A stretch of DNA of 49,553 nt from Pseudomonadota bacterium (GTDB taxonomy: Bacteria; Pseudomonadota; Gammaproteobacteria; Burkholderiales; UBA11063). A program made the translations under genes and the position numbers. The stretch covers positions 1-49,553 of the forward strand of contig JAUPUP010000227.1 in the NCBI GenBank assembly GCA_030917485.1, given 5' to 3'. The notes beneath the pieces were generated by a model that saw nothing but the letters and a program-made list of their open reading frames with translations, did no database searches and was not told where the DNA came from. Shown here piece by piece: positions 20,568 to 23,978 of this stretch; within the stretch, counting starts at the first letter, position 1, and each line of letters starts with the position of its first letter.

Positions 20568-23500
20568 CTAGCGTATAGTCAACAAGGCTGCCCCAGTAGT
20601 AAATCCTCCGCCAAATGCGCATAGCCCTATCTTATGTCCGCTTACTTCAGTGGGTAATACTTCTGCCATACCAATGGGTATAGTGCAGGCTGACGTGTTG
20701 CCATAGGTAGCAATATTACTATAAATAAAGTCATGCGGTAAATGCAGGCGGTGTTCAACAGCGCTAGTAATGCGCTGGTTAGCCTGGTGAGGAATTACTA
20801 CGTCTATATCGGTTAGTTGAATATTACTATTTCTGCAGCATTTGTGCATAGCTAGCGACATGGCTTTGACTGCGGTAGTAAACAGCTTTTTACCTTCTAA
20901 ATGTATTCCATCAGCTTTTTTTACCGGTACATTCAGAACGCTGCCGTTTTCTCCGATTGCGGATAAGTTGATTTGATCTATGGTTGCAATACTGTCATCA
21001 ATGTAGTCGCTACCGTAAACGATGGTAACAGTTGCAGCATCGCCAAATAAAAATGCTGTATCAAAATCATGTAAATTAAGTCGGCTGGATAAATTTTCTG
21101 CTGTAATTACTAATACTCGCTCCGATGGTCTAGTTTGCAAATAATCCCGTGCATTTTGCAAGGCATATAAATAACCGCTGCAAGCAGCATTAATATCGTA
21201 AGCTGGGATATTATGTTCACCATAAATTTGGTAGAGCTTGGCTAATACCAGACAAGCGACCGAAGGTGATTGATATACTTCTGGAGTAGATGTAGCACAG
21301 ATAATGCTATTAATGTCAGCTAAGGTTAACCCGTGCTTAGCTAATATTTCATGGGTAATTTGAGCTGCAATATCAACTATGCTCTCGTCATCTTTAAGCC
21401 AAAAACGCTGTTTAATTCCGGTCCTGCGTTCTATATCATCGGTCTTTTTATCTGGAAAATTTTTTAATATTTCATCATTCAGTACTTTTCTTGAGCCGGT
21501 CTTAAAATGGGGGGCGCTAATTCCAACTGGGTAAATTGATTGCCTAAAATCTGCATTGCTGGGTGTGTTGTGGGTGTTGTTTAACGAGTTACTTAAATCA
21601 GATGTATTAGTGTTTATTGATTTGCGGCTGATAATTATATTTCTTTTTTTAGTTTGGCTTAAGTTCTTTTTAACACTGTCACTACTTAAACGAACTTTTA
21701 ACATAATTTCGCCAACAATTGCGCGACTGCCTTCTTGGACTGTAATTTCTTCAATTAAACCATCACAGGGAGATAAAATTTCCCCTGCCGATTTGCTTGC
21801 CTCAATATCAACTAAAATGTCTCCAGCCTTGATGCTATTCCCAACTGCTACATGAATTTTATTAATTAAAACGCTTTCATCTGATGGACTAGCGCCAATT
21901 ACTTCAACATGGTAGATTGAATTATCTGCATTAGCGACTAATTCCTCGAATTTTATGTCTAAATTTAGTAGTTTGGCTGCACCAATTAAAATTTTGTCAG
22001 TGGAGGGCAAAACTTCTAGCTGGTTATCATAGTTGCATGGAGTGTAAGTGTCGCCCCTGGCAACTCGCATAGCTTTGATTGCCACCTCGCTTTGTTCGAC
22101 AACTGAGGCAATAATATCTCCGCCTACGCCACAAGTAAGATTATCTTCATGAACCACAATCAGATTTTTAGTTTTTCTAACTGAGGCTAAAATAGTAGCA
22201 ATATCATAAGGCTTGATAGTGCGCAGATCAATTACTTCGGCTTCAATTCCAATAGACTCTAAAATATCGGCTGCTTGACTACACAATCCAACAGTATTGC
22301 CCCATCCGACTAAAGTAATATCAGTTCCGGTCGTGACAATCCTGGCTTTGCCAATAGGCACAATATGTCGTCCAATATCAGTTGAAGTAGTATCCGCAAT
22401 GCTGCTGTTATTAAGTAATTTTTTGGGATATAAATACACGCACGGACGCCCGGATTTAAATGCAGCATTTAGCATACCAGCAGCATCAGCCGCATTAGAC
22501 GGCATATAAACATCAATGCCTGGAATATGCGCATAAGTTGCCTCATTAGTTTGTGAATGAAAAGGTCCTAATCCCGGACGGTAACCACCACAGGCAGCAA
22601 ATACAATTACTGGGTTTTGCCATTCCCCATTAGTACGCCAATACATAGTAGCTAGTTCAGAAAAAATCTGATTATACGCCAGTGGCATAAAGTCAGCGAA
22701 TTGGACAAAAGCCACAGGTAATTTACCAGCTAAGGCCATTCCTCCTGCCATTCCTACTATGGTTGATTCACTAAGTGCGCTATTTTTTACGCGTTCTGGA
22801 TATTTAGTGGATAATCCACGAGTTATACCAAAAACATCACCTTTATCATCTTCAATATCCTGCCCAAGTAACACCACCTTCTCATTTTGCGCTAAATGTA
22901 AATTAAAAGTGCTTTTCATAGCTTCAAGCATTGTGAGCCGATTATTGTTATCCTCAAAATCTCCGCGGTATTCAGGTGCACCGGGCTGTAACTCTGGCGG
23001 AAGTGGTTTTTCTGCAGTAAATGTGGGAGCTGGAGCGCTACCCAATCTGGCAGTGTCTAAGGATTTACGCACCTCATTCACGGCTTCTCGTTTAGTTTGG
23101 TCAAGCAATTCTTGATTTATACCGTGCTTAATTAAATATTCATAACTGAGAATCAATGGGTCTTGTTCTTTGGTGAGATTTATTTCATCTGTTTGGCGAT
23201 AGAGCTTTTGATCATCTGCATTCGAATGATTATCTAGGCGGTCAATATTAAATATTACAATCTGCGGTTGGCGGTCACTCCGCATCTGAGTAATCAGATT
23301 TTGAATAGTGTCTAATTGTTCTAGTGGGCGTCGTCCATCAAGTTGGGTAATCGGTATTTCATAAAATGATTGGGCGTAGTGATTAGCCTGCTGATCTTGT
23401 GGATTGTTGTACTGTTGTCCGCCACCAGGAAGAGAAAAAAATGTTTTGCCATTCGTTCGGGTGGAAATAGCCAAGCTGTTATTGTGAATAAAAAACAATA

Positions 23501-23978
23501 TTGGCAAGCAGCTTCTTTTAGCTTCCGCAATAGCTTCCAAAACTTCGCCTTGCTGAGATGTCCCATCACCAAAGCTACACACCACGATTGGATTATCTGT
23601 ATTATTTTTTATTGCGTAAGCAATACCAGCAGCTTGAAGCGCGTTATTGCCAACTGGTCCAACTATACTCAAAATGTTCAGCTTAGCCGCGCTCATATGG
23701 GAGACCATCTGGCGACCGTGTGAATGAGATTCTGCTTTGGTTAGAGCGCTATAGAAAAACATTTCACTGCTAATGCCACGGGCTAACATTAGAGCCTTGT
23801 CTCGATAATGACAATGTATGTAATCAGACGCTGTTAAAAACGGCGCTAATATTACACTGCCTTCATGCCCCTTGCTGGATGCTAAAAAATTTGCCTCACC
23901 ACTATTCACCAGCTCTGCTTCAACTGCATCTGATTCACGCGACATCAGCATGTATTTATATAAATTTAATTGTGCCAT
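20568..23978 (-). CDS. Fusion protein: 2-oxoacid dehydrogenase E1alpha + E1beta + lipoyl domain + beta-ketoacyl-ACP synthase III (FabH)
   Basis: E1alpha: HYRD, GDG (aa 137)...HNN, HSNADD. E1beta: LGQDI, SALSESTIVG, QFADF, GPFH(474)SQ, EVIDLRTIKP. Lipoyl: IEASK(729)SAGEI. FabH: RTGIKQR, DINAAC(933)SG, FLFGDAA, PH(1064)QAN, GN(1094)TS, FGGGFT. Confidence 0.93.
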   Translation of the reverse strand: MAQLNLYKYMLMSRESDAVEAELVNSGEANFLASSKGHEGSVILAPFLTASDYIHCHYRDKALMLARGISSEMFFYSALTKAESHSHGRQMVSHMSAAKLNILSIVGPVGNNALQAAGIAYAIKNNTDNPIVVCSFGDGTSQQGEVLEAIAEAKRSCLPILFFIHNNSLAISTRTNGKTFFSLPGGGQQYNNPQDQQANHYAQSFYEIPITQLDGRRPLEQLDTIQNLITQMRSDRQPQIVIFNIDRLDNHSNADDQKLYRQTDEINLTKEQDPLILSYEYLIKHGINQELLDQTKREAVNEVRKSLDTARLGSAPAPTFTAEKPLPPELQPGAPEYRGDFEDNNNRLTMLEAMKSTFNLHLAQNEKVVLLGQDIEDDKGDVFGITRGLSTKYPERVKNSALSESTIVGMAGGMALAGKLPVAFVQFADFMPLAYNQIFSELATMYWRTNGEWQNPVIVFAACGGYRPGLGPFHSQTNEATYAHIPGIDVYMPSNAADAAGMLNAAFKSGRPCVYLYPKKLLNNSSIADTTSTDIGRHIVPIGKARIVTTGTDITLVGWGNTVGLCSQAADILESIGIEAEVIDLRTIKPYDIATILASVRKTKNLIVVHEDNLTCGVGGDIIASVVEQSEVAIKAMRVARGDTYTPCNYDNQLEVLPSTDKILIGAAKLLNLDIKFEELVANADNSIYHVEVIGASPSDESVLINKIHVAVGNSIKAGDILVDIEASKSAGEILSPCDGLIEEITVQEGSRAIVGEIMLKVRLSSDSVKKNLSQTKKRNIIISRKSINTNTSDLSNSLNNTHNTPSNADFRQSIYPVGISAPHFKTGSRKVLNDEILKNFPDKKTDDIERRTGIKQRFWLKDDESIVDIAAQITHEILAKHGLTLADINSIICATSTPEVYQSPSVACLVLAKLYQIYGEHNIPAYDINAACSGYLYALQNARDYLQTRPSERVLVITAENLSSRLNLHDFDTAFLFGDAATVTIVYGSDYIDDSIATIDQINLSAIGENGSVLNVPVKKADGIHLEGKKLFTTAVKAMSLAMHKCCRNSNIQLTDIDVVIPHQANQRITSAVEHRLHLPHDFIYSNIATYGNTSACTIPIGMAEVLPTEVSGHKIGLCAFGGGFTTGAALLTIR

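What the first reader, a model, noticed from the sequence alone, without database searches (positions are those of the whole stretch)
20568..23978. Single-chain E1alpha-E1beta-lipoyl-FabH enzyme: possible CoA-independent fatty acid priming
Seen: one 1136-aa ORF carries a complete ThDP-dependent E1 (GDG...NN, His474), a lipoyl domain (Lys729) and a KAS III with an intact Cys933-His1064-Asn1094 triad. The His-Asn spacing of 30 matches E. coli FabH. No E2 acyltransferase core or E3-binding domain is recognisable. Established: normally E1 acylates lipoamide, E2 transfers the acyl group to CoA, and FabH then uses acyl-CoA. E1-like/lipoyl/KS combinations on separate proteins are known from quinocarcin and naphthyridinomycin biosynthesis. 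Inference: KAS III occupies the E2 position, so the swinging arm may deliver acetyl or branched acyl groups directly to Cys933, converting a 2-oxoacid plus malonyl-ACP to 3-oxoacyl-ACP without an acyl-CoA. Similar fusions may already exist in databases as uncharacterised proteins; I cannot check this.
Basis: partly seen in the sequence, partly recalled or inferred. Interest (0 to 1): 0.9.

Follow-up and report, generated by a model that had tools for sequence, protein, structure and literature searches.

The report
Keto-acid dehydrogenase with FabH replacing E2
One real, widely conserved bacterial protein joins a keto-acid decarboxylase, its lipoyl swinging arm and a fatty-acid-starting enzyme that lacks two usual coenzyme A-binding residues, so it likely starts branched membrane fatty acids straight from keto acids without coenzyme A, an untested route.

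Summary
Confirmed: window 20568-23978 (-) encodes one 1136-aa E1alpha-E1beta-lipoyl-KAS III protein with no E2 core. It is not an artefact: another study's contig bridges the linker without gaps, and 32 of 36 genus relatives carry it (0 of 24 genomes from other families of the order). Among 175 non-redundant fusions (down to 35% identity), E1 histidines, lipoyl lysine and Cys-His-Asn are at least 174/175 conserved. None keeps both CoA-adenine stacking residues (Trp32, Arg151); 32 of 32 standalone FabHs from carrier genomes do. Sister proteins carry an E2 core at the KAS III position. Genus genomes have no third E2 and no separate branched-chain E1. A named carrier, Aquella oligotrophica, has 36% iso-C15:0. 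Best reading (0.55): acyl-lipoamide acylates Cys933 directly, then condenses with malonyl-ACP to prime branched fatty acids, while standalone FabH primes straight chains. No step is shown biochemically, and carriers keep other E2s, so an acyl-CoA route is not excluded. Four searches of open-access papers found no description. This scan noted the same fusion before in at least 13 other genomes.

The parts
20568..23978 (-). Whole ORF, 1136 aa: E1alpha-E1beta-lipoyl-linker-KAS III
   Evidence: bridged by independent contigs
23049..23960 (-). E1alpha-like domain (residues 7-310) with ThDP motif G137-D138-G139...N167, HYRD 57-60 and H251
   Evidence: PF00676 E=1.9e-35; best PDB matches T. thermophilus and human BCKDH alpha; conservation
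21963..22937 (-). E1beta-like domains (residues 348-672) with E404 and H474
   Evidence: PF02779 and PF02780
21687..21917 (-). Lipoyl-type domain (residues about 688-764); K729 codon at 21792-21794
   Evidence: PF00364; best PDB sequence matches are E2 lipoyl domains; K in 174 of 175 fusions
21528..21686 (-). Linker (residues 765-817), partly disordered; no E3-binding domain recognised
   Evidence: pLDDT below 50 at 789-812; linker 28-129 aa, median 39, across 175 fusions
20571..21527 (-). KAS III (FabH-like) domain (residues 818-1136): C933, H1064, N1094, R1069 kept; D848 in place of Trp32 and F972 in place of Arg151
24012..26300 (-). maeB-type NADP malic enzyme gene 33 bp upstream on the same strand; probably co-transcribed, but not a conserved partner
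   Evidence: upstream neighbour in 10 of 103 loci with a full fusion, all within the window's own clade

Best explanation
The protein is a single-chain 2-oxoacid dehydrogenase in which a FabH-type condensing domain occupies the place of the E2 core, and it likely primes branched-chain fatty acids without an acyl-CoA intermediate. Proposed cycle, all steps inferred: (1) the ThDP E1 part decarboxylates a branched 2-oxoacid such as 2-oxoisocaproate; (2) it reductively acylates lipoylated K729; (3) the arm swings to KAS III and passes the acyl group to C933; (4) H1064/N1094 decarboxylate malonyl-ACP and C933 releases a branched 3-oxoacyl-ACP into the FAS II cycle; (5) a free E3 reoxidises the arm in trans. 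The standalone FabH would prime straight chains from acetyl-CoA. Shown: architecture, residue conservation, loss of Trp32/Arg151, distribution and genome inventory. Not shown: lipoylation, substrate, transfer chemistry and product.
For: (a) All catalytic parts are kept together in 175 non-redundant fusions: C933 175, N1094 175, H1064 174, K729 174, H251 175, H474 174. (b) The CoA adenine stacks between Trp32 and Arg151 in FabH (PMC4606726, passages). In the fusions Trp is kept in 2 of 175, Arg in 1 of 175 and both in 0; 152 of 175 have Asp/Glu at the Trp site. Standalone FabHs from carrier genomes keep both in 32 of 32, as do the 5 of 5 PDB alignments shown. (c) Eleven related full-length E1ab-lipoyl proteins, plus two partial ones, carry an E2 core at the same position, ten of the eleven with a DH..G motif, so this slot is the acyl-lipoyl acceptor. 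(d) One relative extends the fusion with KR and ACP domains (P0233), as expected if the product is a 3-oxoacyl-ACP. (e) No dedicated partner E2: none of 29 genus genomes has more than two E2s; in G000 these are SucB and AceF. In 21 near-complete genus genomes the only strong E1_dh hits are the fusion and one large frame per genome, read as SucA from its size. (f) E1alpha scores 105 and 95 bits against T. thermophilus and human BCKDH, against 58 and 45 for PDHs. (g) Aquella oligotrophica carries the fusion (P0180, WP_102951011.1; 63% identical) and has 36.2% iso-C15:0 (PMC6612550). (h) G000 has LipA, LipB, two E3s and IlvE, but no HMG-CoA synthase, no 2-oxoacid:ferredoxin oxidoreductase and no isovaleryl-CoA-dehydrogenase-sized enzyme was found (96.9% complete).
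Against: There is no biochemical evidence. All 10 spirochaete-order carriers and G215 have 1-6 E2 matches and a standalone FabH, so absence cannot exclude a trans E2. The 9 spirochaete-order fusions keep a basic Lys at the Arg151 site, and Arg36 is kept in 132 of 175, so weak CoA binding is possible. Substrate assignment is soft: P. putida BCKDH alpha scores only 36 bits, below the PDHs, and invariant F430 matches a PDH-labelled chain rather than the Tyr of two BCKDH beta chains (pocket role recalled). The lipid phenotype rests on one cultured species, whose genome I did not search by name. In the window's clade the residue before the lipoyl Lys is Ser (84 of 87), not the usual Asp. No E3-binding domain is recognised.
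Confidence: 0.55

Rival explanations
1. The same CoA-free channel operates, but the substrate is pyruvate or another unbranched 2-oxoacid, giving acetoacetyl-ACP as a second straight-chain priming route, fed here by the adjacent malic enzyme.
For: maeB lies 33 bp upstream on the same strand. F430 matches a PDH-labelled E1beta chain. E1beta scores against PDH and BCKDH chains are close, 155-179 bits.
Against: maeB is the upstream neighbour in only 10 of 103 loci. The genome already has AceEF and a standalone FabH. E1alpha is closer to two of three BCKDHs. This reading leaves the iso-C15:0 of a carrier unexplained.
Confidence: 0.15
2. The fusion only co-locates two ordinary steps: an E2 of another complex (AceF or SucB) moves the acyl group from the lipoyl arm to CoA, and the KAS III domain then uses acyl-CoA.
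For: 28 of 29 genus genomes and all 11 other carriers tested have at least one E2. Arg36 is kept in 132 of 175.
Against: 0 of 175 fusions keep both adenine-stacking residues, against 32 of 32 standalone FabHs. There is no dedicated E2 in the genus and no E2-like gene in the flanks examined. The KAS III domain sits in the E2 slot.
Confidence: 0.12
3. The KAS III domain works as a transacylase: it moves the acyl group from lipoamide through C933 to holo-ACP (or CoA) without condensing, and FabB/FabF extend the acyl-ACP.
For: This is what the E2 core does in the QncN/QncL/QncM type (PMC6335953, passages). FabH has a known transacylase side activity (recalled).
Against: His and Asn, needed for malonyl decarboxylation (established FabH chemistry), are kept in 174 and 175 of 175. 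A KR-ACP extension follows KAS III directly in P0233.
Confidence: 0.1
4. It primes a specialised metabolite rather than membrane fatty acids.
For: Related E1-lipoyl modules occur in PKS/NRPS or thioesterase fusions (P0287, P0304, P0263/L110).
Against: No conserved neighbourhood, and no ACP-like ORF in the flanks examined (many flanks were only 1.5 kb). It is near-universal in the genus, 32 of 36, like a housekeeping gene.
Confidence: 0.08

Closest known systems
Branched-chain 2-oxoacid dehydrogenase complex (E1alpha2beta2/E2/E3) feeding FabH, the textbook branched fatty acid route (as summarised in PMC9328018, passages)
   Same: Homologous ThDP E1alpha and E1beta, a lipoyl domain, and a Cys-His-Asn KAS III; likely the same net outcome, a branched 3-oxoacyl-ACP.
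   Different: One chain; no E2 core, no E3-binding domain and no dedicated E2 gene; KAS III lacks the Trp32/Arg151 CoA clamp, so the acyl-CoA step is likely skipped.
QncN/QncL/QncM and SclQ1-4 starter-loading systems (PMC6335953, passages; the primary Qnc paper was not read)
   Same: An E1-like ThDP enzyme plus a lipoyl arm loads an acyl unit for a carrier-protein pathway.
   Different: QncL keeps an E2-type acyltransferase domain, uses a ketose phosphate, transfers to a dedicated ACP and sits in a gene cluster. Here the acceptor is a condensing KAS III and the gene stands alone.
Standalone FabH (KAS III; E. coli 1hn9, S. aureus 1zow, A. aeolicus 2ebd)
   Same: Same fold (Foldseek target TM-score about 0.9), Cys-His-Asn triad and Arg249 equivalent.
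   Different: Fused; below the TIGR00747 cut-off (216.6 vs 292.1 bits); Trp32 and Arg151 replaced; fused domains form their own clade apart from 32 standalone FabHs (support 0.959).
Single-chain E1alpha-E1beta-lipoyl-E2 proteins (uncharacterised database relatives such as P0283, P0284, P0296)
   Same: Same N-terminal three-part module and same domain order.
   Different: An E2 catalytic core stands where this protein has KAS III.

Membership tests
2-oxoacid dehydrogenase complex (BCKDH/PDH) | ThDP-binding E1 with GDG...NN motif and both catalytic histidines | tested here: met
2-oxoacid dehydrogenase complex (BCKDH/PDH) | Lipoyl domain with conserved lysine | tested here: met
   K729 in 174 of 175; no biotinyl MKM motif; best PDB matches are lipoyl domains. 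Lipoylation itself is not shown.
2-oxoacid dehydrogenase complex (BCKDH/PDH) | Cognate E2 acyltransferase core and E3-binding domain | tested here: not met
   None in the chain; no third E2 in 29 genus genomes; none in the flanks examined
2-oxoacid dehydrogenase complex (BCKDH/PDH) | Product is acyl-CoA | not testable with these tools
   needs an enzyme assay
BCKDH-type specificity | Preference for branched 2-oxoacids | tested here: inconclusive
   E1alpha is closer to two BCKDHs than to PDHs but scores low against a third; F430 differs; carrier phenotype iso-C15:0
FabH (KAS III) | Thiolase fold with Cys-His-Asn triad | tested here: met
   NF006829 251.3 bits against cut-off 249
FabH (KAS III) | CoA-adenine clamp Trp32 plus Arg151 | tested here: not met
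   D848/F972; both kept in 0 of 175 fusions and 32 of 32 standalone FabHs
FabH (KAS III) | Condenses an acyl primer with malonyl-ACP | not testable with these tools
   inferred from the triad and from Arg/Lys at the Arg249 site in 174 of 175
QncN/L/M-type starter loading | E2-type acyltransferase domain behind the lipoyl domain | tested here: not met
   KAS III instead
QncN/L/M-type starter loading | Dedicated ACP and biosynthetic cluster beside the gene | tested here: not met
   no ACP-like ORF and no conserved neighbours in the 116 loci examined; window neighbours are maeB, ruvC and an orphan ORF

The most novel reading that the evidence does not exclude
Acyl-dihydrolipoamide is a direct acyl donor for a Claisen-condensing enzyme. 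This family is a second, CoA-free entry into fatty acid synthesis that explains branched membrane lipids in lineages lacking a classical BCKDH. The E1-lipoyl module is a portable starter-unit generator whose acceptor slot has been filled by an E2 core, KAS III, a thioesterase or an unknown domain.
Probability: 0.6. Interest if true: 0.85.

Novelty: new variant of a known kind. Interest (0 to 1): 0.74.

Why it matters
Textbook fatty acid initiation passes through acyl-CoA. A direct lipoyl-to-ketosynthase hand-off would be a new link between two ancient swinging-arm chemistries. It would keep branched primers out of the CoA pool and away from catabolism, and explain iso/anteiso lipids in Gram-negative lineages that lack a BCKDH operon. 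It is directly testable with one soluble protein from a cultured tap-water isolate. One gene might be enough to supply branched primers to laboratory E. coli, where standalone FabH accepts them poorly (recalled). Database labels ('2-oxoisovalerate dehydrogenase E1', 'beta-ketoacyl-ACP synthase 3', 'transketolase') each hide most of the protein.

Tried and rejected
Complex prediction of the lipoyl domain with a KAS III dimer gave no verdict (score 0.00, controls not folded); it is not used either way. No RNA holder was listed, so expression was not examined. Promoter and terminator scans were at or below shuffle level (11 vs 20.4 and 3 vs 5.4). Misassembly or a missed stop: rejected. A biotinyl rather than lipoyl domain: unlikely. 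A second copy in the genome: G000:C163 holds the first 93 matched residues at a contig end, 78% identical; the contig is 98.9% identical to locus L074 of another lineage, so it is read as likely contamination. A conserved gene cluster: not found; the commonest neighbour family is in 19 of 116 loci, all within the window's own clade. Excluding a trans E2 by finding carriers without any E2 failed. Loss of Lys214 as evidence against ACP binding: uninformative, since 0 of 11 standalone FabHs of the second control set have Lys there. Fatty acid data for Cysteiniphilum, Fangia and Facilibium: none of the 5 listed papers contained 'anteiso'; their branched lipids are only recalled and are not used. 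A paper on the FabH-ACP interface residues was not found. One search counted 224 redundant and partial sequences, so its fusion counts were replaced.
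Full report
1. Observation. The ORF at 20568-23978 is on the minus strand and gives 1136 aa without a stop. Pfam finds E1_dh (7-310), Transket_pyr (348-523), Transketolase_C (543-656), Biotin_lipoyl (701-761) and both KAS III halves (927-991, 1049-1134), and no E2 core or E3-binding family. 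A contig from a different study bridges 20568-22787 without gaps. AlphaFold2 with an 83-row alignment gives pLDDT 88.8 and pTM 0.80, with only 789-812 disordered. Foldseek matches the parts to E1beta chains and FabHs, and none of the listed matches covers the whole chain (best query TM-score 0.46).

2. Distribution. Of 7992 scored candidates, 1538 passed E<=1e-30. Of the 120 listed, 119 carry all six Pfam domains; the rest were not seen. Named carriers include Neisseriaceae MAGs, Cysteiniphilum, Facilibium, Fangia, Caedibacter, Oceanispirochaeta and Aquella oligotrophica. In the window's genus, 32 of 36 relatives carry it: 28 whole, 3 partial, and 1 in two frames. The four misses are 52-81% complete. 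None of 24 genomes from other families of the order has it. An even draw from the class gave 1 full fusion and 1 E1-lipoyl-only protein among 399 other genomes, with two candidates scored per genome. Ten of 24 genomes from the order of the spirochaete locus L006 matched. So it is patchy across bacteria but stable within lineages. That the window's organism is Aquella-like is my inference from record titles and identity.

3. Surroundings. Upstream by 33 bp on the same strand is a maeB-type malic enzyme; downstream lie a dispersed repeat and an orphan ORF. Across 116 loci no neighbour family is conserved beyond the window's clade. maeB is upstream in 10 of 103 loci with a full fusion. No ACP-like or E2-like ORF was found in the flanks, and an E3 lies near the gene in 2 loci with the same layout; 30 of the loci had only 1.5-kb flanks.

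4. Genome inventory (G000, 96.9% complete). There is a standalone FabH after plsX and two E2s, SucB and AceF. There are two E3s, one scored by NCBIfam and one read from its sequence. LipB, LipA split over two contig ends, and IlvE are present. The two acyl-CoA dehydrogenases are FadE and a 536-aa protein upstream of a 2126-aa ORF. No HMG-CoA synthase or 2-oxoacid:ferredoxin oxidoreductase was found. Among 29 genus genomes, 25 have two E2s, 3 have one, 1 has none and none has three. Among 21 near-complete ones, the strong E1_dh hits are one large frame each (read as SucA from its size, not individually checked) and the fusion in 20. The fusion is thus the only BCKDH-like E1 found, and it has no E2 of its own.

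5. Active sites. From 372 candidates, 259 were full-length fusions and 175 remained after removing near-duplicates, down to 35% identity. C933, N1094, H251, N167 and E404 are invariant; H1064, K729 and H474 are in 174. In FabH the CoA adenine stacks between Trp32 and Arg151 (PMC4606726, passages). The fusion has D848 and F972 there. Trp survives in 2 of 175, Arg in 1, both in none, and 152 have an acidic residue at the Trp site. Standalone FabHs from carrier genomes keep both in 32 of 32: 21 from the genus, 10 from spirochaete-order genomes and 1 from G215. Against this, Arg36 is kept in 132 of 175, and the 9 spirochaete-order fusions have Lys at the Arg151 site. The Arg249 equivalent, recalled as an ACP contact, is Arg or Lys in 174 of 175. 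The standalone FabHs mostly keep the Phe87 column (19 of 21), recalled as limiting primer size; the fusions have smaller residues there.

6. Evolution. The E1ab-lipoyl module also occurs with an E2 core (11 full-length proteins, one of them with an added ACP, plus 2 partial, one continuing into KS-MT-C-A domains). It also occurs with a thioesterase, with an unknown domain, or alone. One KAS III fusion continues into KR and ACP. In a FastTree of 92 E1 modules (midpoint root), all 54 KAS III fusions fall in one clade (0.999) that also holds one E2, one thioesterase, one unknown-domain, two lipoyl-ended and one long-branch E1-only protein. Its neighbours are E2-type fusions, but that node has support of only 0.54. 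In a tree of 97 KAS III domains, the 63 fused domains and 2 lone look-alikes form one clade (0.959). The two members that keep Trp32 branch deepest in both trees. This fits a single replacement of E2 by FabH followed by loss of the CoA clamp. I ran no clade or rooting test, so the order of events is a suggestion.

7. Substrate. E1alpha scores 105 and 95 bits against T. thermophilus and human BCKDH, 58 and 45 against PDHs, and 36 against P. putida BCKDH. A. oligotrophica encodes the fusion (P0180) and has 36.2% iso-C15:0 besides C14:0, C16:0, C16:1 and C18:1; the authors say the fatty acid profile helps distinguish it from other Neisseriaceae (PMC6612550: abstract, passages, section 19). Iso-C15:0 normally needs an isovaleryl primer from 2-oxoisocaproate (established). 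Straight plus branched chains fit two priming enzymes. This is one organism and a correlation.

8. Mechanism. E1 decarboxylates the 2-oxoacid and acylates lipoyl-K729; the arm acylates C933; malonyl-ACP is condensed; E3 acts in trans, as the glycine-cleavage L protein does on H protein without a tether (recalled). E1 (alpha-beta)2 and KAS III are both twofold dimers (established), so a dimer of the chain would satisfy both. All of these steps are inferred. Weights: branched and CoA-free 0.55; unbranched and CoA-free 0.15; trans E2 and CoA 0.12; transacylase only 0.10; specialised metabolite 0.08.

9. Comparison and novelty. It works like BCKDH plus FabH, and like QncN/L/M in using a lipoyl arm to load a starter. 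It fails a defining feature of each (no E2 core; no CoA clamp; no cluster), so it is filed as a new variant. Four full-text searches found no description of the fusion: 0 papers; 0; 2 listed; passages of PMC9328018 read, which give the textbook route; 80 papers, 20 listings seen, none on this. The library covers open-access papers only, and supplements were not searched. QncN/L is known to me from passages of PMC6335953. This scan noted the same fusion in other genomes (8 shown; 13 counted); those are unchecked AI notes and are not counted as support.

10. Verdict. A real, conserved and apparently unstudied enzyme with a well-supported but untested CoA-free priming hypothesis. Interest 0.74.

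Noticed in passing
window 20380-20562: A dispersed intergenic repeat of about 180 bp just past the fusion's stop codon, with 93 blastn hits in G000 at about 72-97% identity and high contig depth; MITE-like or an RNA element, not examined further.
   Followed up: partly
L110:5950-9222; P0263: The same E1ab-lipoyl module fused to a thioesterase domain with Cys in the nucleophile motif (GVCLG), amid ORFs unlike those near the KAS III fusions; possibly releases a free acid or primes a small molecule.
   Followed up: partly
P0261, P0233, P0287, P0304: Other C-terminal partners of the module: an unannotated domain of about 230 aa; KAS III plus KR plus ACP; E2-ACP-KS-MT-C-A; E2-ACP.
   Followed up: partly
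L149:1462-3807 (G476): E1ab-lipoyl ending at 781 aa with no acceptor domain, followed by two ORFs that were not identified.
   Followed up: no
G000:C163:3111-3410: A second, truncated start of the fusion gene on a 3.4-kb contig 98.9% identical to locus L074; likely contamination from a related species.
   Followed up: yes
window 28810-39591 (+): A 3593-aa ORF with only a weak DUF3638 match, below cut-off.
   Followed up: no
window 6367-6783 and 6887-7261 (-): Two near-identical short coiled-coil genes (one with a weak CCDC90-like match) sit between gspE and gspF of a type II secretion locus, 1001-8664.
   Followed up: no
window 16162-17904 (+): A fatty acid desaturase gene followed by a nitroreductase gene, about 2.7 kb from the fusion; no link tested.
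   Followed up: no
window 8691-10688, 14242-15468, 18182-20293, 27250-28443: Four large ORFs without a Pfam match.
   Followed up: no
L033:478-1185 and 18 other loci: A chromosomal Rep3-type replication initiator homologue lies on the opposite strand upstream of the fusion in many members of the genus.
   Followed up: no
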